Virus record (IMG/VR): IMGVR_UViG_3300015371_000016
Span: 1-64,000 of that record
Reading direction: 5' to 3' (one strand)
Source of the DNA: a virus
Length of the DNA: 64,000 nt
The number at the start of each line of letters is the position of its first letter. The stretch's first letter is position 1. Of the stretch, positions 14,427 to 49,911 are shown in pieces. A program made the translations under genes and the position numbers. A model generated the notes under the pieces. That model was not told where the DNA came from. It worked only from the letters and a program-made list of their open reading frames with translations, and did not search any database.

Positions 14427-15098
14427 CTACTGCGGAATGGAAGGGAAATTCGCCATCGGCGCGTTCAGTGACACACTCGGCGAACCCGTCGTTGGACGCC
14501 CAGTCCAGGATTCCTGCGAGGAGTGAGCCGGGTGCGTCTCGCCAGTACTGGCGGTCGCGGTCGAGGTCGGCAAACCAGCGGCGAACTCCGATAAGTTCCG
14601 CGACGATGTCAAAGCACCCCACAGCGCACCAACGCCGTCGATCAGCTCCCGTCTCTCGCTCCGTCGATTCAGCCGCCAAGCGAGCGTAAAAAAAACCAGG
14701 GCGCCCTCCACCTCGTCCGCATCGTCCTGGTCGAGCAGCCCGTCCTTTTTCGCGTCCTCGTAAGGGATCATCTGCCAACCGGTGGAATGGCCGTTGCTAC
14801 CAGCTCCAGGCGCCACCACGTTGGCCAGCCGGCGTATCTCCGGCATAAGCCCGCGCTCGACACCCATCGGGCCATCCCAGACGCGGAGCTGTTCAGATAC
14901 CGACTTCAGCGCCTTAGCAGCGATCCGTGCACCGAGGACATGCAGTCCCTCGCTGTAGATTTGTGTGAATGCTTTCGAGAGCGGCAGCCAATAGCGATCG
15001 AACGCCTCACGCGAGATCGGCGCGGCATGCACGTGCAACGTTGTGCCGTCGCTGCGGTCAATCTGCATGACAAGATAAAGGGTCTCGTCGATGTGCAT
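14427..15098 (-). CDS. Tail assembly chaperone
   Basis: Lies between tube and tape measure; overlapping alternative frame 14380..14778 and a T8 run. Confidence 0.6.
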   Translation of the reverse strand: MHIDETLYLVMQIDRSDGTTLHVHAAPISREAFDRYWLPLSKAFTQIYSEGLHVLGARIAAKALKSVSEQLRVWDGPMGVERGLMPEIRRLANVVAPGAGSNGHSTGWQMIPYEDAKKDGLLDQDDADEVEGALVFFTLAWRLNRRSERRELIDGVGALWGALTSSRNLSEFAAGLPTSTATASTGETHPAHSSQESWTGRPTTGSPSVSLNAPMANFPSIPQ

Positions 15099-15112
15099 GT
15101 TGCTCCTAGTGC

Positions 15113-15521: not shown

Positions 15522-15870
15522 CAGTCGCGTTCCGACAGGATAAGCGCAATGTATTCGTCCGGTGCGACCGGCCCTTCATGGATTACAGGCTTCGGCGGAC
15601 GCGTCGGCAACTCGGGCGGTGCGTCAAGCAGCGGGAACCAAGGCCCGGAGAGCGAAAAGAACCGCCATCGGTAACCATCCCAGACCCACATTGACGCCTC
15701 ACTGATCCATTAGCGAGAACGGCCAGACACCCAGAAGCATGGACCATAACACGATCACTGGCGCCGCGTGAAATCCGCAGAGCACGAGCAAGCACCAGCT
15801 CATGTGGAAAACGACGCGGCTGTAGAACACCCAACTCGGCGCGGTGTTATCGTATCGCCAATCTTTCATT

Positions 15871-16590: not shown

Positions 16591-18135
16591 TCATGTCGGC
16601 AGAGAGACGCCAACACGAAGGTTCTTGCTGTCGTCCTTCTGCCAGACCGTGACAGTGTAGATCGTCATGGGATTCTCATTGCACGTGCCGATCATCAAGT
16701 GCATGTGCTGACGATCGATGATCGACCACGGTGGATCGCCTGGGTCTTGCGCTTTGTTGCCAGAGACATATGGCGTCCATGTGTAAGTCTGTCCGACTTG
16801 TTGGCGATCGTAGTAATTTTTGATGTAGCCCTGCGAATTGGCGGTCGCGGGCACCCAGAGCCAACCGTACTTGTGTCGGACGCCAAAGTTATTGTTGCTA
16901 GGCAATCTGACAGTGGAGTCCTGGCCGATCACGCCACTATTGAATCGCCAATTAGGATTCTCTGCATCTGACCAGTGGATGATCCCGGCAGAGTATTCGC
17001 GATTGTTGGCCGCCATAAATTCAGCCGCATCGAACTCGATGTGCTGCACCGATGGCCCAGGAGAAACACTGTAGTCGCTGAAGCCACCCTCGACAGCGTC
17101 GCACCACCATGCCGGCCAGCCAGATTGCGGAGGCTCACGATACCCGACGAGCGGGTTTTCGATCAGCATGTCGATCTCGAAGTATCCGCCACCGCCGAAG
17201 CCCACGCCACGGAAGGTCGAATTATGGTTGGTCGCGGTATCGATGTGGCTGTTGTAATGCCAAGAGCCGCCACCGGGTCCGGGATCAGTCACCGATCCAT
17301 CACTGTTCTGTCGCACGCGCTGGCCAGGAATGACGAACCAGTTCTGTCCCAGGGTCACGGCAGGACCATGAGTGCGCCTAGTATAGCCCACAGCCGCCGC
17401 GTAGGAGGGCGGAGCGTCACCAGTGCTCGGCGGTGGCGGAGCTGGAGGCGAAGGAGGCGATGGAGGAGGAGTCGGTGGAACGGTGCCGGTCTGTGCACTG
17501 CTTACGTTGAGTTGCGAAGTCTTGTCGCTTTCACCAGAGGAATTTGTGACGGTCATCGTCACGTTATATTGCGTGTTCGCCTTTAGTTGCGTGATCACCG
17601 GCTGCGGCTGGCCGGGCGCGGAGCGCCACGCGACATTGCCGGTTAATCTGCCGGTCGGCCTGAAACTGTACCACTGATTAGTTTTGTTGACGTGAAAAAC
17701 TTGGCCGTCACAAAGCAAGACGCTGGTCGCATTATAGCCGTCGCCATACGAGCCGTTGACCATTACCGCATCGGGCTGCGGGCCGCCGCTCGGAACGATA
17801 GTCCATACATTCCCAAAGGCGTCGGTCACATTGCCTTTCGCGGGTGAACAGTAAGGCACTGTAGGGCCGATTGACCAGGAACTTGCACTGGCTTCTTTGA
17901 ATTGGACGCGATACTCGCCGAAATCAAGCGCACCACCGCTACTCGGAGGACCGGCAGCAATAGTGATGGTCGAGGAGGTCTGCGCTGGTGAGCTAAGATT
18001 AGTCGGTGCACCTGGACGATTGCCGCCAGATGGAGGTGGAGGTGGCGGCGGTGCGGCAGAGGAGGTCAGTGTGCCTCTAAGCACCGTGCCATCGCTCAGC
18101 GTGACAACCGCCTGTCCTGTCAGCGTCCCTGACAT
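16591..18135 (-). CDS. FN3 + GH16-like protein, paralog of 1006..2781 and of FN3 parts of 2808..6584
   Basis: Near-identical segments NWFVIPGQR...TDPGPG...GFGGGGYFEI...GWPAWW; EFDAAE motif. Confidence 0.7.
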   Translation of the reverse strand: MSGTLTGQAVVTLSDGTVLRGTLTSSAAPPPPPPPSGGNRPGAPTNLSSPAQTSSTITIAAGPPSSGGALDFGEYRVQFKEASASSWSIGPTVPYCSPAKGNVTDAFGNVWTIVPSGGPQPDAVMVNGSYGDGYNATSVLLCDGQVFHVNKTNQWYSFRPTGRLTGNVAWRSAPGQPQPVITQLKANTQYNVTMTVTNSSGESDKTSQLNVSSAQTGTVPPTPPPSPPSPPAPPPPSTGDAPPSYAAAVGYTRRTHGPAVTLGQNWFVIPGQRVRQNSDGSVTDPGPGGGSWHYNSHIDTATNHNSTFRGVGFGGGGYFEIDMLIENPLVGYREPPQSGWPAWWCDAVEGGFSDYSVSPGPSVQHIEFDAAEFMAANNREYSAGIIHWSDAENPNWRFNSGVIGQDSTVRLPSNNNFGVRHKYGWLWVPATANSQGYIKNYYDRQQVGQTYTWTPYVSGNKAQDPGDPPWSIIDRQHMHLMIGTCNENPMTIYTVTVWQKDDSKNLRVGVSLPT

Positions 18136-18149
18136 ACACTAATCCCTTC

Positions 18150-19493
18150 CTAAGCGAGCGCCCCGGTGAGCAACACGACAGTCTCCGATGGCACCGAAAT
18201 TGAGTTGATGTCTGCTTGCGTGCCGCTCTGCGGCGTGGGCGTGGTGCCGCCCTGCTTGCCGATCTCCCACCGAGCCACTTGCCCGGTAGGCTTCTTTCCG
18301 CCCCAGTCGGGAACGACCGTCCGTGCGTTCGACGTATCGTAATTGATCAGCACCATCGCGAAGCGCGATGACTCCGGCTGTGTAGTCCATACCACCAATC
18401 TCGGCAGCGTGGTCGAGCATGCGACCTCTGGGCCGGAGAATTCCCGTCCAAGCTTGCCGAGGATGTAGCCTGAGCAGGAAACCCGGGTCAGGTCGTTATT
18501 AAGCTGGCTATTACCGATCGCACCTTCGGTTTGATAGCGCACGATGTTCTGCATCGCGCACGCATCCACGCCGGTCGTGCTGCGCCACAGCCCGAACAGG
18601 TAGCAGAGCACATATATGCCGCCTGAATACTGCCCGGCTTGATTGACCGTTGTGAGCGCGCCGTTAACCGTCGCCTCGCCCATATTGTAATCGAATGTGC
18701 CTAGCGGGATATGCGCGAGCGTCGAGCCTGAAAGCGCGCTACGCTGCACGAGCGCGTCTGGATTCTGCACGCCCTTCGGCCCGTAGGCGTTGGCGAGATC
18801 GGTGACGTTACCCTGACCGTTGCCCGTGCAGTCATACGAGACCCAGTCCACTCCACCGCAACGCGAGCCGACGCTATTGGCGAAGGTGGCATCGGCGAAC
18901 TGCCCAGGGTCCCATTGCGCCGGCCCCCACACACGGTAGATCGGATTCACCGCATGCAGCGCGTCAGCGACGGCGGTGAAGTATTCGATCACTGTGCTCT
19001 GTGGCCAGCCGGACTCGCGGTCCCATAGCGTGCCGACGTGGAAGTCGAGGATGTTGCTGTGACCGTTCTGGTTCAGCCATCGCGCAAAATTTGCAGCCTG
19101 ACCAGCACGTGTTCCTGCGCCGCCCGTGGGCTTGTGGCAAACACCCATCACCACGCGCACATCTGGTTGGCAGAAGGATTTATAGTTCCCGAGCAGCGCG
19201 TTGATCGTGCCCATGTCGCCGGCTGCATACTTCCAGTCCAATTGCCAATCAGCATTGAACGCGAGGAGCGCCGGCTTCAGGTAAGTGTTGGCGGTATTGC
19301 GGAACGTCTGATTGCTGAAGAACTCGCCGCCATAGGTCGAGCAGCTAAATCCGAATAGAGACTTATTGACCGTCTTGCCGGTGGGTAGTGCGAAGTTTAT
19401 CGTCGTATTGCTCTGCGACGGTTTAGGATCGGCGGCCAGTTCTCCGCTAAGCGTCTGCCCGTTGCTTAGAGTGACGGAGAAAATATTTGGCAT
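18150..19493 (-). CDS. GH39-like barrel protein, paralog of the C-terminal part of 2808..6584
   Basis: TINFALPTGKTVNKSLFGF...RVWGPAQW...RWEIGK...SVPSETVVLLT shared with 2808..6584. Confidence 0.65.
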   Translation of the reverse strand: MPNIFSVTLSNGQTLSGELAADPKPSQSNTTINFALPTGKTVNKSLFGFSCSTYGGEFFSNQTFRNTANTYLKPALLAFNADWQLDWKYAAGDMGTINALLGNYKSFCQPDVRVVMGVCHKPTGGAGTRAGQAANFARWLNQNGHSNILDFHVGTLWDRESGWPQSTVIEYFTAVADALHAVNPIYRVWGPAQWDPGQFADATFANSVGSRCGGVDWVSYDCTGNGQGNVTDLANAYGPKGVQNPDALVQRSALSGSTLAHIPLGTFDYNMGEATVNGALTTVNQAGQYSGGIYVLCYLFGLWRSTTGVDACAMQNIVRYQTEGAIGNSQLNNDLTRVSCSGYILGKLGREFSGPEVACSTTLPRLVVWTTQPESSRFAMVLINYDTSNARTVVPDWGGKKPTGQVARWEIGKQGGTTPTPQSGTQADINSISVPSETVVLLTGALA

Positions 19494-42925: not shown

Positions 42926-42955
42926 CGACACCAGCGCGCTGTGACAGCGGCGCGC

Positions 42956-43843: not shown

Positions 43844-43917
43844 TGTCGAAACACACGAGCGCCGAAGCGTTCGTGTGTCGCTGGGAGATGCCCTACCCAG
43901 CCTGAAGAGACAGGGCA
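43844..43917 (+). ncRNA. Type II hammerhead ribozyme with pseudoknot
   Basis: TGTC GAAA [stem III] TC GCTGGG-agaTGCCCta-CCCAGC CTGAAGA GACA GGGCA; predicted cleavage after C43879. Confidence 0.9.
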
Positions 43918-43934
43918 CTACAGAGGAACACCAC

Positions 43935-44228
43935 ATGACAAAGACAAACCCCAATAGACACCGAGCGGCCTTGTCCTATATCGAGGCGGTTAACGACCAG
44001 TTGCTCGATCTAGTGGCGCCGATCGAATGCTTGAGTAGCTTCGAAGCCGTGTCACCAGACGAGCTGGAGGCGCTGAAGAAGTGCACCAGCGATCTTCTAT
44101 CGGTCGTGACCATCCTTCGCTCTGTCCAGAGCTATCACGAGCGCAAGCAACGCGCCTCCTCGATAGTCGTCACCACTTCGTCGCAGGATATAGCGCGGGA
44201 GCGGCGAACGCGAGCCGGAGGAAGATGA
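43935..44228 (+). CDS. Hypothetical early protein
   Basis: ATG after ACAGAGGAACAC (MTKTNPNRH). Confidence 0.55.
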   Translation: MTKTNPNRHRAALSYIEAVNDQLLDLVAPIECLSSFEAVSPDELEALKKCTSDLLSVVTILRSVQSYHERKQRASSIVVTTSSQDIARERRTRAGGR

Positions 44229-46972: not shown

Positions 46973-47041
46973 CTAGACGGAAGCGGCTCGCTGTGGCGCG
47001 CCGTTTTCGCCCCGTCAGGGGAAACAGAGGAGCACCAATCT

Positions 47042-47356: not shown

Positions 47357-47445
47357 TCTGACCTGGACGCAGGCTGCTCACTCGCGGGTGCGCAGTCTGC
47401 GCCTCGGCCAGAATAGTCTGACTGAGGAATACAGAGGAACACCAA

Positions 47446-48378
47446 ATGACTGCACGAAACTGGATCGGCGGCAGGAATGGCAACCAAGCCTCTTCTGCTG
47501 CCAACTGGTCTCCTACTGGCGCACCGCTATCGGGCGACACGCTGACGATCGATCACGGCACGATGCAAGTCACTGGCAGCGCGCTCGGAAACGACGATCT
47601 GCACGTGACGGGCAATGCGACGGTCAGTTTTCACCAGAGCTACGGCGATCATCTGATCATCGGCGTGCCTGGACCGACCAAGCTGAACGCGACGGTCAAC
47701 CTATCGAATTCTGCCGTCGCGATCAATCAAGGCTGGGATAATCTGAAGATCAATGCCGCCGGCACCAACTGGCTCGCTCTGTCTAGCTATCCCGGCTACA
47801 GAGCGACCAACGGATCGGTGACGATCAAGAATTCAGGAACCCTAGTCGGGAGCGTCGGCGGCCTAGGCACGAGCGTGCGGATCGATGGCGGGACGTTCTA
47901 CAATCAGGACTCCCATGTCGGTCTGGACGGCGGATCGTTCGTGATCAACTCCAAAGTCGCGGGAGACGGCTCCTGGACTCTGGGCACGTATCACGCACCG
48001 TATGCCAAGCTCGAATTCATGCAATCGGTCAGCTCAGAGCAGACGATAAACCTGGAAAGCGGTGTGGGATACGGGCTCCTACAGATCGACCAGCCATCTA
48101 CCTTCCGGGCCAAAATCGGGTGGGCGAGTGAGCAAGCGATCGTCGATCTGAATAAGCTCGCCGCCGATAGCTACAAATATGATGCCTCGGCCGGTGCGCT
48201 CGACTTCTTCAGCGGCAACCGGATGATCTATCAGCTCCACGTCGAGAAAACGTCGCCCTACGTCGGAACTTACGCGGTCGCCAAAGGAACCTCGACCGGC
48301 GGTGCCGGCGTGGAACTCTATTCCAAGGACTTCGCGTGGAAGCTTCCGCACGGCGCTGATCTGCCAGTGCACACCTAA
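47446..48378 (+). CDS. Beta-rich protein resembling alphaproteobacterial surface/passenger domains
   Basis: WIGG..ASSAANWSPTGAP..GDTLTI; LQIDQPSTF. Confidence 0.6.
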   Translation: MTARNWIGGRNGNQASSAANWSPTGAPLSGDTLTIDHGTMQVTGSALGNDDLHVTGNATVSFHQSYGDHLIIGVPGPTKLNATVNLSNSAVAINQGWDNLKINAAGTNWLALSSYPGYRATNGSVTIKNSGTLVGSVGGLGTSVRIDGGTFYNQDSHVGLDGGSFVINSKVAGDGSWTLGTYHAPYAKLEFMQSVSSEQTINLESGVGYGLLQIDQPSTFRAKIGWASEQAIVDLNKLAADSYKYDASAGALDFFSGNRMIYQLHVEKTSPYVGTYAVAKGTSTGGAGVELYSKDFAWKLPHGADLPVHT

Positions 48379-48692: not shown

Positions 48693-48932
48693 ATGGATAT
48701 TCTCAGCACATTCGGTCTCGTCGTGACATTCGCGACTTTAGCATACTCCATTTTTCAGATGATCCAAATCAGGAAACAGCGCCGTCAAGCTGAGGCGTTA
48801 AACCGTCTTCTGATGATACTGGCCGCCCAGTCATTCATGAACCAGCCCCTGCCGATATGGATCGCGTGGTCGCTAATGACTGGCCTTCGTTTTCATCTGG
48901 AAATCGAGAAGAAGGAGGCTGAGAACTCTTGA
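48693..48932 (+). CDS. Small membrane protein
   Basis: N-terminal TM; AAGGAA RBS. Confidence 0.55.
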   Translation: MDILSTFGLVVTFATLAYSIFQMIQIRKQRRQAEALNRLLMILAAQSFMNQPLPIWIAWSLMTGLRFHLEIEKKEAENS

Positions 48933-49091
48933 CTAAGGGAGCGCGCTTAGCGTGGCTCTCTTAGCCTGGAGTTCACCCAGGTAACCCCTGACCAGCGGGC
49001 CGACCTACCGGCCAACGACACATGGTTACGCGGTCTCGGTTGTGGACACTGGTCGGGCCGAGACCAATTTCCTGCAAGCAGAGGACACACA

Positions 49092-49463
49092 ATGCCATTC
49101 GATTCAATGAAAAGCGACCTACAGATCGAGCGCGACGAGAAGGCTCTTGCGATGCTCAACTGGATTTATGCCAGCATGGCCGCGCACCGATACACGTGGT
49201 GCCAAGGCTCAATGGGCGTGGGCGGTATACACTGCATTATGGGCTGGGCGAGAAGATACGACGGCGTATTTGGTGCCGAACTTTTGGCTGAGTATTTGGG
49301 ACCGCTTTGTCCAAATATCGCAGACGAAGGACTCACTATTATTGTTCGTCAAAATTTGCTTGCCCATCGTGTAATAAAAATGAACGACGCCAGATCGACC
49401 ACAAAAGACACGATGCTTTTATTGCTATCTCAAGCAATCACGAACATCAGGCTGGGTAAATAA
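49092..49463 (+). CDS. Hypothetical protein
   Basis: WCQG...HCIMG...NDA..TT. Confidence 0.55.
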   Translation: MPFDSMKSDLQIERDEKALAMLNWIYASMAAHRYTWCQGSMGVGGIHCIMGWARRYDGVFGAELLAEYLGPLCPNIADEGLTIIVRQNLLAHRVIKMNDARSTTKDTMLLLLSQAITNIRLGK

Positions 49464-49506: not shown

Positions 49507-49537
49507 AGGGCGGTACTTTCGGGTGCCGCCCTTTTTT
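49507..49537 (+). terminator. Intrinsic terminator ending the early operon
   Basis: AGGGCGGTAC-tttcgg-GTGCCGCCCT-TTTTT. Confidence 0.8.
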
Positions 49538-49911
49538 ATCCTGCTCGATTCGCAAGCGCCTTCACATTGGCGAAGCCAAGAGAGCTTACTGTCGCAATTA
49601 GGCTACAGTGCACTGTTACCGCACCATTTCACGTGGCCGCTGTCAAGCGGTTTCACGGGTCCGAGAGACCGAATTTCACGGAAACGCGCGTGGCGCCGCA
49701 CGTTTTGGATATAATCTGTGCACAGTATCGCTGCACAAACGAACGGGACCGCCCAGTGACCAGCAAGCGGTCCCGCCCACCAACCTACAGAGGAACGCAC
49801 CAATGCCACGCTCACGCCCAGCGATCTCGCGGTAAAGCTCTGGCAGTTCCGTGTTCAATGTAGCGTTTCGCGGGTTTCTTGTCACCACGCTTTCTAATGT
49901 AGACGTTCCCT

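What the first reader, a model, noticed from the sequence alone, without database searches (positions are those of the whole stretch)
48981..49065. Unclassified double-pseudoknot RNA in a ribozyme slot
Seen: between a post-stop hairpin (48933-48964) and the CAGAGGA RBS, where the other junctions have ribozymes, four helices can form. They are GTAACC 48981-86/GGTTAC 49024-29, CCTGACCAG 48987-95/CTGGTCGGG 49049-57, GGCCG 48998-49002/CGGCC 49009-13, and GGTCTCGG 49032-39/CCGAGACC 49058-65. The first crosses the second and the second crosses the fourth. The order is partly HDV-like, but I cannot match it to a canonical class. Inference: a variant or new self-cleaving RNA, or a nuclease-blocking structure.
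Basis: partly seen in the sequence, partly recalled or inferred. Interest (0 to 1): 0.7.

Follow-up and report, generated by a model that had tools for sequence, protein, structure and literature searches.

The report
New double-pseudoknot RNA in phage operon
The flagged 85 bases are a real member of a rare, uncatalogued family of tightly knotted RNAs, kept by compensating mutations in unrelated soil phage and bacterial DNA; here it sits where this phage otherwise places self-cutting ribozymes, so it is a good but untested candidate for a new RNA-processing element.

Summary
By itself this helix set is only a top-0.5% feature of the window. The decisive result came from a metagenome scan that fixed only the two unpaired strands and left every helix position free. 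It returned five contigs that carry the whole element. A sixth copy was found beside a homologous gene in another viral contig. Across the five distinct sequences, 97% of pair cells form pairs. Ten of 26 pairs show changes on both sides, and each helix covaries, including the pseudoknot helix that the search model did not contain. No Rfam 15 family matches any copy. The RNA fails the tests I could apply for HDV-like, hammerhead (classic or permuted), twister and hatchet ribozymes. In this phage it is an insert between a hairpin pair and the ribosome-binding leader of the operon's last gene. The other junctions of the same operon carry twister or hammerhead ribozymes. The structure is well supported, but the function is untested. 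My leading reading is a new self-cleaving or processing RNA, at about 0.35. A by-sequence look-up found no copy elsewhere in this scan. Notes on other phages describe possibly similar uncatalogued double-pseudoknot RNAs, and I could not test whether they are the same family.

The parts
48693..48932 (+). Upstream cistron (79 aa, no family match); its stop codon is TGA at 48930-32.
   Evidence: ORF list; Pfam and NCBIfam found nothing.
48933..48964 (+). Post-stop GC-rich hairpin without a U tract; first half of the recurring two-hairpin junction module.
   Evidence: Folds. The same module is seen at window 46973-47024 and 47368-47427, and in relatives L008 and L009.
48965..48981 (+). Small hairpin CCUGG-N7-CCAGG; second half of the junction module. 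Its last G is shared with H1.
   Evidence: Fold; same CC..GG hairpin directly before the leader in L008 and L009 junctions.
48981..48986 (+). H1 5' strand (GUAACC).
   Evidence: Pairs with 49024-29. Homologs have UAACC/GGUUA, AUGAACC/GGUUCAU and AUGAC/GUCAU; 3 of the 4 counted pairs covary.
48987..48995 (+). H2 5' strand (CCUGACCAG), the pseudoknot helix. The junction-side half CCUGA is nearly invariant (one C-to-U change in L109) and holds a U.G wobble kept in all copies.
   Evidence: Pairs with 49049-57. Two pairs covary (C-G to U-A in 3 sequences, C-G to A-U in 1). H2 was not part of the search models.
48996..48997 (+). Invariant CG linker between H2 and H3.
   Evidence: Alignments A2 and A4.
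48998..49013 (+). H3 hairpin (GGCCG-ACCUAC-CGGCC). The stem covaries; the loop varies in length (6-12 nt) and sequence.
49014..49023 (+). Unpaired strand J, AACGACACAU. It is identical in 5 of 6 copies; L113 lacks one A.
   Evidence: Its invariance is partly built in, because it was part of the search pattern.
49024..49029 (+). H1 3' strand (GGUUAC).
49030..49031 (+). Linker GC between H1 3' and H4 5'. It is 1-2 nt in most copies and 20 nt, including an extra hairpin, in L113.
49032..49039 (+). H4 5' strand (GGUCUCGG).
   Evidence: Pairs with 49058-65; 3 pairs covary (GGCCCCGG/CCGGGGCC, GGUCCCGG/CCGGGACC, GCGCCCCGG/CCGGGGCGC).
49040..49048 (+). Unpaired strand L4, UUGUGGACA (AUGUG-CCA in L113). 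It may pair UGUG with CACA of strand J as a fifth helix; this is inference.
   Evidence: The fifth helix cannot be tested because these positions do not vary.
49049..49057 (+). H2 3' strand (CUGGUCGGG), contiguous with the H4 3' strand.
49058..49065 (+). H4 3' strand (CCGAGACC); 3' edge of the conserved element.
   Evidence: Sequence conservation stops here.
49079..49094 (+). Shared early-gene leader with ribosome-binding site (CAGAGGACACACA) and the start codon ATG at 49092.
   Evidence: the same leader stands before 10 other genes of the operon.
49092..49463 (+). Downstream cistron (123 aa, no relatives found), last gene before the operon terminator at 49507-49532.
   Evidence: only itself among 5.8 billion proteins; terminator.

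Best explanation
Shown: 48981-49065 (+ strand) is one copy of a small, rare family of 85-105-nt RNAs that is not in Rfam 15. The fold has four helices in the order a b c c' a' d b' d'. Three helices (H1, H2, H4) meet at one point. The two near-invariant single strands, AACGACACAU and UUGUGGACA, also arrive at that point. Inferred: these two strands and the near-invariant junction-side pairs (CCUGA/UCGGG with its U.G wobble, and the CGG/CCG end of H4) form a compact functional core. CACA/UGUG may add a fifth helix, which would close a four-way junction with two side-by-side helical stacks. Proposed mechanism: the RNA acts in cis on the early polycistronic transcript as an mRNA-boundary module. 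Most specifically, I propose it is a self-cleaving ribozyme of a new class. It would separate the 79-aa and 123-aa cistrons as the twister and hammerhead ribozymes do at the other junctions. The upstream mRNA would end in the hairpin pair. The knotted RNA would remain on the 5' end of the downstream mRNA. The stated confidence is for this self-cleavage mechanism. That the element is a real, selected, double-pseudoknotted RNA I hold at about 0.9.
For: Structure. A scan that fixed only the two loop strands gave 10 loci. Five of them carry all four helices with different sequences, and the other five carry none. A sixth copy was found by the covariance model next to a homologous gene. Pair counts are: 97.4% of cells paired, 10 covarying pairs, 0/500 shuffles as high, and each helix has 2-3 covarying pairs. 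H2 was not in the model, so its pairing is an unbiased check. The nested alternative that RNAalifold offers in place of H2 does not covary. It is also broken in the window copy at exactly the position that H2 compensates. The U.G wobble kept in all copies fixes the + strand as the RNA strand. H1 length plus linker tracks H4 length (5+2, 6+2, 7+1 against 8, 8, 9), which suggests a fixed three-dimensional geometry.

Context. Sub-threshold but clear Rfam hits show twister-P5, a type III hammerhead and three twister-P1 ribozymes at other junctions of the same operon. All share the layout stop, hairpin, ribozyme, leader. In relative L008, a homologous gene has the hairpin pair where this phage has a hammerhead, so junction elements are interchangeable. 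The family occurs in unrelated contexts: a phage operon, the 5' UTR of a beta-helix-like gene, right after the stop codon of a small gene, and upstream of a bacteriocin-like peptide gene. Such scattered contexts are typical of small ribozymes and atypical of riboswitches. Searching near twister and hammerhead genes is how twister-sister, pistol and hatchet were found (PMC6765202).
Against: There is no cleavage evidence of any kind, and no cleavage site can be named. Only five distinct sequences are known. Five of the six copies were collected by requiring the two single strands exactly, so the invariance of those strands is partly built in. Most other conserved RNAs found near ribozyme-associated genes did not cleave when tested (PMC6765202). 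The junction already has the hairpin-pair module that seems to stand in for ribozymes elsewhere, so a second processing element looks redundant. No catalogued ribozyme was found beside the copies in L103, L105, L106, L109, L112 or L113. In L112 no gene follows on the same strand.
Confidence: 0.35

Rival explanations
1. The RNA is an end-protecting knot that resists exoribonucleases. It does not cut itself. After host RNases process the transcript at the neighbouring hairpin pair, the interlocked helices stall exonucleases and stabilise the adjoining mRNA.
For: Both ends of the element are tucked into the region closed by H2 (strand order a b c c' a' d b' d'), which is a mechanically resistant topology. 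It lies directly after a stop codon in L112. It sits at the 5' edge of the downstream message in the window and in L113. The hairpin-pair module just upstream could provide the cleavage site.
Against: No known bacterial or phage exonuclease-resistant RNA has this fold, and no Rfam family matches. The roughly 25 near-invariant unpaired nucleotides are more than a mechanical block would seem to need. The upstream mRNA already has a strong hairpin for 3' protection.
Confidence: 0.2
2. The RNA is a cis-regulatory sensor or operator in the 5' UTR. The knotted core binds a small molecule or a protein and controls translation or read-through of the gene that follows.
For: In four of five lineages a gene follows on the same strand within 27-130 nt. 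In L113 the element sits between a terminator-like hairpin with a U tract and the ribosome-binding site. A compact junction with many invariant unpaired bases is also what ligand-binding RNA domains (aptamers) look like.
Against: The downstream genes are unrelated: a 123-aa gene with no relatives, a beta-helix-like protein and a bacteriocin-like peptide. In L112 no gene follows on that strand. No conserved expression platform is seen. The distance to the ribosome-binding site varies, and the tail sequence after H4 is not conserved.
Confidence: 0.2
3. The RNA is a partner or marker of a mobile gene cassette. It travels with the 260-310-aa beta-helix-like protein family and acts in trans, or as an RNA-protein complex, rather than on its own transcript.
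For: A member of that protein family lies within 0-0.7 kb of the RNA in three of five lineages: the window, the L112 type and L113. The relative orientation differs among them (downstream, convergent, upstream), which argues against simple cis control of that gene.
Against: Four viral contigs (L114-L117) carry the gene without the RNA. L103 and L109 carry the RNA without the gene within the 3-5 kb available. The protein has no family match and no sign of an RNA-binding domain. The link may only reflect shared ancestry of these elements.
Confidence: 0.1
4. The RNA is a topological variant of an HDV-like ribozyme. H1 would be P1, H2 would be P2, the extra hairpin of L113 would be P4, and the invariant C-A before the H2 3' strand would be J4/2 with the catalytic cytosine. 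Cleavage would be immediately 5' of H1.
For: The strand order matches HDV up to P1 3'. An optional hairpin sits where P4 would be. An invariant C lies two nucleotides before the H2 3' strand in all copies, and the catalytic C of HDV-like ribozymes is the first base of J4/2 (PMC10879173). The upstream sequence is not conserved, as expected for cleavage at the 5' edge.
Against: Ten near-invariant nucleotides separate H3 from the H1 3' strand, where HDV has none. The H3 loop is variable, so it cannot form P1.1 or the L3 active-site loop. The H2 3' strand lies inside the H4 hairpin instead of at the 3' end. A permissive HDV descriptor found no credible fit. No HDV-type Rfam model hits the + strand at E<=10.
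Confidence: 0.05
5. The element is only two ordinary hairpins, and H2 is a chance complement with no function.
For: The minimum-free-energy fold is just H1+H3 and H4, with a modest z-score of -1.6 to -2.8. About 0.5% of all 91-nt windows of this DNA reach the same helix total.
Against: H2 is kept in all six copies with two compensated positions, although it was never part of the search pattern or the models. The flanking single strands are near-invariant across otherwise unrelated contigs.
Confidence: 0.02

Closest known systems
HDV-like self-cleaving ribozymes, including the minimal theta ribozymes of gut phages (PMC10879173)
   Same: Both are small RNAs with two crossing pseudoknots, and both occur in phages. 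The order P1 5', P2 5', hairpin, P1 3' is shared. An optional hairpin follows P1 3'. An invariant C lies just before the P2-like 3' strand. Both have side-by-side helices joined by very short linkers.
   Different: A 10-nt near-invariant strand separates H3 from the H1 3' strand. The H3 loop is variable, so there is no L3 or P1.1. An extra 8-9-bp helix (H4) encloses the P2-like 3' strand. There is no G.U at the base of H1. No Rfam HDV model matches. Cleavage is untested.
Non-circularly permuted hammerhead ribozymes (types SGC and CSG; Eckert et al. 2023, PMC10085705)
   Same: These are a precedent for a multi-helix junction whose strands are connected in an unusual order, so that the drawn structure has at least two pseudoknots. 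They also come from metagenomic material. Our element contains CUGA next to a helix.
   Different: The hammerhead core is absent. The sequence is CUGA(C/U)C rather than CUGANGA, and there is no GAAA anywhere in the element in any copy.
Twister, hammerhead and hatchet ribozymes that punctuate phage and prophage operons (Rfam RF03160, RF02684, RF00008, RF02678; PMC6765202, PMC4604424)
   Same: The genomic role-slot is the same: sense strand, between a post-stop hairpin and the next gene's ribosome-binding site, in an operon that carries five such ribozymes. About 90% of hatchets also have a hairpin (P0) just 5' of the ribozyme.
   Different: There is no sequence or structure match to any of these models. 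Hatchet has four nested stems and no pseudoknot. The conserved twister loops are absent.
Flavivirus-type exoribonuclease-resistant RNAs (xrRNA)
   Same: Both are compact interlocked pseudoknots at message boundaries, with the 5' strand paired inside a closed ring. This comparison rests on my own knowledge.
   Different: The helix order and conserved bases differ. xrRNAs are known from eukaryotic viruses and act against Xrn1. No homology was detected.

Membership tests
HDV-like ribozymes | Nested double pseudoknot with strand order P1 P2 P3 P3' P1' P4 P4' P2' (P2 3' strand last). | tested here: not met
   The order here is a b c c' a' d b' d'. The H2 3' strand lies inside the H4 hairpin.
HDV-like ribozymes | P3 3' strand runs straight into P1 3' strand; a conserved L3 loop forms P1.1 with J1/4. 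| tested here: not met
   Ten near-invariant nucleotides separate H3 from the H1 3' strand. The H3 loop varies from 6 to 12 nt with no conserved bases. The descriptor search found no credible alternative.
HDV-like ribozymes | Catalytic cytosine at the first position of J4/2 (PMC10879173). | tested here: inconclusive
   An invariant C-A precedes the H2 3' strand in all six copies, but there is no P4/J4/2 frame in which to place it.
HDV-like ribozymes | Match to the Rfam HDV, CPEB3 or related covariance models. | tested here: not met
   No + strand hit at E<=10. The only CPEB3 hit (12 bits) lies on the - strand at 49077-49171, outside the element.
Hammerhead ribozymes (classic and permuted) | Core blocks CUGANGA and GAAA plus a cleavage-site block, flanked by three stems. 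| tested here: not met
   The element has CUGA(C/U)C(N)G and no GAAA in any copy. No Rfam hammerhead hit falls here, while the model does find the copy at 42954.
Twister ribozymes | Conserved loop sequences and T1/T2 pseudoknots as in RF03160 and RF02684. | tested here: not met
   The twister models hit four other junctions of this operon but not this one, even at E<=10.
Hatchet ribozymes | Four nested stems P1-P4 with 13 conserved nucleotides in the P1-P2 linker and the P2-P3 bulge; no pseudoknot (PMC4604424). | tested here: not met
   The topology differs, with two covarying pseudoknots, and there is no RF02678 hit.
Pistol, twister-sister, hairpin and glmS ribozymes | Match to the Rfam covariance model of the class. 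| tested here: not met
   No hit at E<=10 on the window copy or the L113 copy, and none at E<=1 on five homolog loci. Permuted forms of these classes were not tested.
Any self-cleaving ribozyme | Site-specific self-scission giving 2',3'-cyclic phosphate and 5'-OH ends. | not testable with these tools
The new family itself (working definition) | Helices in the order a b c c' a' d b' d'. The 5' strand reads (H1)-CCUGAYCNG-CG. Single strands are AACGACAC(A)U and (U/A)UGUG(G)(A/C)CA. The 3' strand reads CNSRUCGGG-CC(H4) (S = G or C). | tested here: met
   The window copy scores 101 bits with model R2 and 95 bits with R3. It keeps every feature.

The most novel reading that the evidence does not exclude
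The element founds a new class of self-cleaving ribozyme. Its active site would be built where three covarying helices and two near-invariant strands meet, possibly as a four-way junction with permuted strand connectivity. Phages and soil bacteria would use it interchangeably with twister and hammerhead ribozymes to cut operon transcripts into single messages.
Probability: 0.3. Interest if true: 0.9.

Novelty: categorically new. Interest (0 to 1): 0.78.

Why it matters
Only about ten classes of natural small self-cleaving ribozymes are known. Three of them were found by looking beside twister and hammerhead ribozymes, which is the situation here. Whatever this RNA does, it is a compact fold with two covarying pseudoknots and about 25 near-invariant unpaired bases, and it is absent from Rfam 15. 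At roughly 85 nt it is small enough for immediate biochemical and structural work. If it cleaves, it adds a ribozyme class and a new tool for defining RNA ends. If it instead blocks nucleases or binds a ligand, it would be a new bacterial or phage example of that kind. The operon is also a natural test bed, because homologous genes in related phages carry different junction elements. That makes it possible to ask directly whether these elements are functionally equivalent.

Tried and rejected
**Searches and look-ups that found nothing**
- Rfam at gathering thresholds on the whole window gave nothing.
- Rfam at E<=10 around the element gave only noise.
- No tRNA or tmRNA was found.
- blastn of the element or the region against GenBank phages and plasmids gave only chance 13-40-mers.
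- The 123-aa neighbour has no relatives.
- The primase gave only two distant loci.
- Eighty TerL-related viral loci and 13 genome loci hold no copy by blastn or nhmmer.
- The single-sequence model R1, run on 49 whole records and 53 loci, found no copy. Its best hit, in L088, is antisense inside a 649-aa ORF and was dismissed.
- Model R3 found no further copy in 1.1 Mb of loci.
- An exact 17-mer of the H2/H4 strand in viral contigs gave two chance hits.
- A leader-motif scan gave two unrelated hits.
- A strict three-loop pattern in metagenomes gave nothing.
- The pattern GTTGTGGACACNNNTCGGGCC in viral contigs gave nothing.
- The 5'-block pattern in viral contigs gave 20 chance hits in coding DNA plus the already known L124.
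- A pattern search in 401 genomes of one alphaproteobacterial family gave no hit.
- Model R3 in 151 Alphaproteobacteria also gave no hit. Its sensitivity was low, so this means "not found in those searched".
- A full-text search for the conserved strands found only unrelated primers.
- The 2026 preprint on many new ribozyme classes mentions neither pseudoknots nor phages.

**Readings considered and dropped**
- A decayed type I hammerhead, suggested by CUGA...GACA around H3.
- A relic of a lost gene junction.
- An integron attC-like DNA site.
- An IS110 bridge RNA (an IS110 transposase lies 1 kb away in L109 only).
- A tRNA-like RNase P substrate.

Each of these fails on missing core motifs or on lack of conservation of the supposed feature in the homologs.

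- As a result, expression data and the contigs of nine further relatives of the 310-aa protein could not be examined.

Full report
**Setting.** The window is most of a 77-kb IMG/VR phage record that is 93% complete. A + strand early operon runs from about 42.2 kb to a terminator at 49507-49532. Before nearly every one of its small genes stands the same leader, (AC)AGAGGA(A/G)CACCA..ATG. Rfam found nothing at gathering thresholds. At E-value thresholds it gave clear sub-threshold hits on the sense strand:
- twister-P5 at 42472;
- a type III hammerhead at 42954;
- twister-P1 at 45350, 46103 and 48410.

Each of these junctions reads stop codon, GC hairpin, ribozyme, leader.

**The observation.** The minimum-free-energy fold shows only H1+H3 and H4, with z-scores of -1.6 to -2.8. 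To judge the full helix set I used a topology-blind statistic: the best four disjoint perfect helices in 91 nt. The element scores 27.5. Dinucleotide shuffles average 20.5 +/- 2.3, and 1 of 1500 reached 27.5. In the real 64 kb, however, about 0.5% of windows do as well, many of them inside genes. The helices alone were therefore suggestive, not convincing.

**No known family.** Rfam 15 gave nothing on the + strand even at E<=10 in an 800-nt search, and ARAGORN found no tRNA or tmRNA. Three classes deserved a closer look.
- **HDV-like.** A permissive HDV-like descriptor found only weak solutions with a 4-bp P2.
- **Hammerhead.** Non-circularly permuted hammerheads are drawn with at least two pseudoknots (PMC10085705), so I checked for the hammerhead core. 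The element has CUGA(C/U)C rather than CUGANGA, and it contains no GAAA.
- **Hatchet.** Hatchet has four nested stems and no pseudoknot (PMC4604424).

**Finding relatives.** The obvious routes failed:
- blastn against phages;
- the neighbouring proteins, which have no relatives;
- 80 TerL-related viral loci and 13 genome loci;
- a single-sequence covariance model;
- an exact 17-mer of the H2/H4 strand.

What worked was a metagenome scan that fixed only the two unpaired strands and left every helix position as N: AACGACACAT, 15-17 free bases, then TTGTGGACA. Ten loci matched. Five are chance matches with no helices. The other five (L103, L105, L106, L109, L112) carry the whole architecture with different helix sequences.

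One copy, in L112, lies beside a homolog (44% identity) of the window's 310-aa protein. Collecting that protein family led to a sixth, more divergent copy. This is L113:4826-4943, which scores 38 bits at E 2e-7 with model R2. It lies 57 nt upstream of the family gene in a 72-kb viral contig.

**Covariation.** I used the six-sequence alignment fitted to a model that contained only H1, H3 and H4 (A4). The full four-helix structure gave these counts:
- 97.4% of pair cells form pairs, against 86.2% in shuffles (0 of 500 shuffles as high);
- 10 of 26 pairs have changes on both sides, against a shuffled mean of 4.2 (0 of 500);
- with the 3' partners slid by 1-3 columns, only 25-49% of cells pair.

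Every helix covaries:

| Helix | Variants seen |
|---|---|
| H1 | GUAACC/GGUUAC, UAACC/GGUUA, AUGAACC/GGUUCAU, AUGAC/GUCAU |
| H2 | CCUGACCAG/CUGGUCGGG, CCUGACCCG/CGGGUCGGG, CCUGAUCCG/CGGAUCGGG |
| H3 | GGCCG/CGGCC, GCCCU/AGGGC, GCCCA/UGGGC |
| H4 | GGUCUCGG/CCGAGACC, GGCCCCGG/CCGGGGCC, GGUCCCGG/CCGGGACC, GCGCCCCGG/CCGGGGCGC |

H2 is the pseudoknot that links the two hairpin domains. It was in neither the search pattern nor the models, so its conservation is an unbiased result. RNAalifold, which cannot draw pseudoknots, replaces H2 with a few small nested pairs. Those pairs never covary, and the window copy breaks them at the very position that H2 compensates. A U.G wobble in H2 is present in all copies, which identifies the + strand as the RNA strand.

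Two caveats apply. Only five sequences are distinct. The apparent invariance of the two single strands is partly built in by the pattern. L113, which was found independently of the pattern, differs there by one deletion in each strand and two substitutions.

**Anatomy.** From 5' to 3' the element reads:
- H1 5' strand (5-7 nt);
- H2 5' strand, CCUGAYCNG, which follows H1 with no gap;
- CG;
- H3 hairpin with a variable loop of 6-12 nt;
- AACGACAC(A)U;
- H1 3' strand;
- a linker of 1-2 nt, or 20 nt with an extra hairpin in L113;
- H4 5' strand (8-9 nt);
- (U/A)UGUG(G)(A/C)CA;
- H2 3' strand, CNSRUCGGG (S = G or C), which runs into H4 with no gap;
- H4 3' strand.

Sequence conservation stops at the outer edges of H1 and H4.

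The following is geometric inference. H1, H2 and H4 must meet at one point, because H1 runs into H2 and H2 into H4 without linker bases. The two conserved single strands enter that same point. CACA in the first strand and UGUG in the second are complementary. If they pair, the point becomes a perfect four-way junction with unusual strand connectivity. H1 would lie beside H4, and the short fifth helix beside H2. The observation that H1 length plus linker tracks H4 length fits this picture. The fifth helix cannot be tested, because those bases do not vary.

**Local context.** The stretch 48933-48981 is a long post-stop hairpin followed by a CCUGG-N7-CCAGG hairpin. The same two-hairpin module, followed directly by the leader, occurs at several other junctions:
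- window 46973-47024;
- window 47368-47427;
- two junctions of relative L008;
- two junctions of relative L009.

L008 has a homologous early operon with the same leader. By eye, it has type II hammerheads at several junctions. A homolog of the window gene at 43922 is preceded in L008 by the two-hairpin module, whereas in the window it is preceded by a hammerhead. Junction elements are therefore swapped between homologous genes. This suggests that they do equivalent jobs. The flagged 85 nt are an extra insert between a complete two-hairpin module and the leader of the operon's last gene.

**Contexts of the homologs.**
- **L112, L105 and L106.** The RNA starts one base after the stop codon of a 90-aa secreted protein. 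I read that protein as HNH-like by eye, but Pfam and NCBIfam do not match it. The RNA abuts the end of a convergent gene of the beta-helix-like family.
- **L113.** The RNA lies between a terminator-like hairpin with a U tract and the ribosome-binding site of a member of that same family.
- **L103 and L109.** The RNA lies about 130 nt upstream of a 62-aa peptide gene with a double-glycine leader. The peptide weakly matches bacteriocin families. An IS110 transposase lies 1 kb away.

Such scattered contexts are unlike those of riboswitches and are typical of small ribozymes. They are also compatible with a generic mRNA-boundary element.

**Function.** Nothing here shows cleavage. Three points favour a ribozyme or processing role:
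- the slot it occupies;
- the complexity and conservation of the junction core;
- the scattered contexts.

Three points count against it:
- Conserved RNAs found near ribozyme-associated genes have often failed to cleave (PMC6765202).
- The hairpin-pair module already present makes a second processing element look redundant.
- The other copies have no catalogued ribozymes beside them.

I put self-cleavage at about 0.35, of which about 0.05 is a divergent HDV-type mechanism. A nuclease-resistant end-protecting knot gets about 0.2. A cis-regulatory binding element gets about 0.2. A cassette-linked or RNA-protein role with the beta-helix-like protein family gets about 0.1. Chance gets 0.02 or less.

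**Distribution and novelty.** The family looks rare with the tools I had. It is in two IMG/VR records, five JGI metagenome contigs (three distinct sequences) and none of the sampled genomes. My patterns demanded exact cores, so the true family may be larger. A by-sequence look-up in this scan's notes found no look-alike in other windows. Word look-ups did list several unchecked notes on uncatalogued 95-125-nt double-pseudoknot RNAs at gene boundaries in other phages. Whether any of those is the same family could not be tested, because no sequences are given. I treat them as leads only.

Noticed in passing
window 46973-47024, 47368-47427 and 48933-48981; L008 minus strand about 17070-17185 and 18560-18679; L009 minus strand about 14480-14580 and 15030-15112: A recurring junction module stands directly before the shared leader. 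It consists of a stop codon, a long hairpin (about 10 bp, a 1x1 internal loop and an apical stem) and an adjacent short CC..GG hairpin. It replaces ribozymes at some junctions and may be an RNase III-type processing site.
   Followed up: partly
window 43844-43921 versus L008 minus strand about 18560-18679: Homologous early genes (window gene starting near 43938 and the L008 gene after 18679; 32-37% identity in blastp) are preceded by a type II hammerhead in one phage and by the two-hairpin module in the other. Junction elements are therefore exchanged independently of the genes.
   Followed up: partly
window 47446-48378; L112 13341-14120 (-); L113 5001-5939 (+); alignment A3: An uncharacterised 260-310-aa protein family, beta-helix-like by its repeats (my reading), has no Pfam or NCBIfam match. 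A member lies within 0.7 kb of the new RNA in three of five lineages, in three different orientations.
   Followed up: partly
L109 839-1027 (+) and the equivalent gene in L103: A 62-aa peptide gene with a double-glycine leader (ELSETELDAVAGG) and a Ser/Thr/Ala/Gly-rich core lies about 130 nt downstream of the RNA. It weakly matches bacteriocin families, below their cut-offs. The RBS-plus-leader sequence is repeated upstream in L103.
   Followed up: partly
L008 minus strand junctions near 15783, 16633 and 19424: Sequences that read by eye as type II hammerheads (GGUC-GAAAC..GUC..CUGAUGA..GACC) were not reported by Rfam at E<=0.01 in a 42-kb search.
   Followed up: no
window 49789-49835: After the operon terminator, another copy of the leader (ACAGAGGAACGCACCAATG) precedes only a 10-codon ORF. 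This may be a decayed cassette or a leader peptide.
   Followed up: no
L109 2944-3035 (+): A second stretch contains GGUUAC and GUUGUGGACA but lacks the rest of the motif, and neither model detects it. It may be a degraded copy or chance.
   Followed up: no
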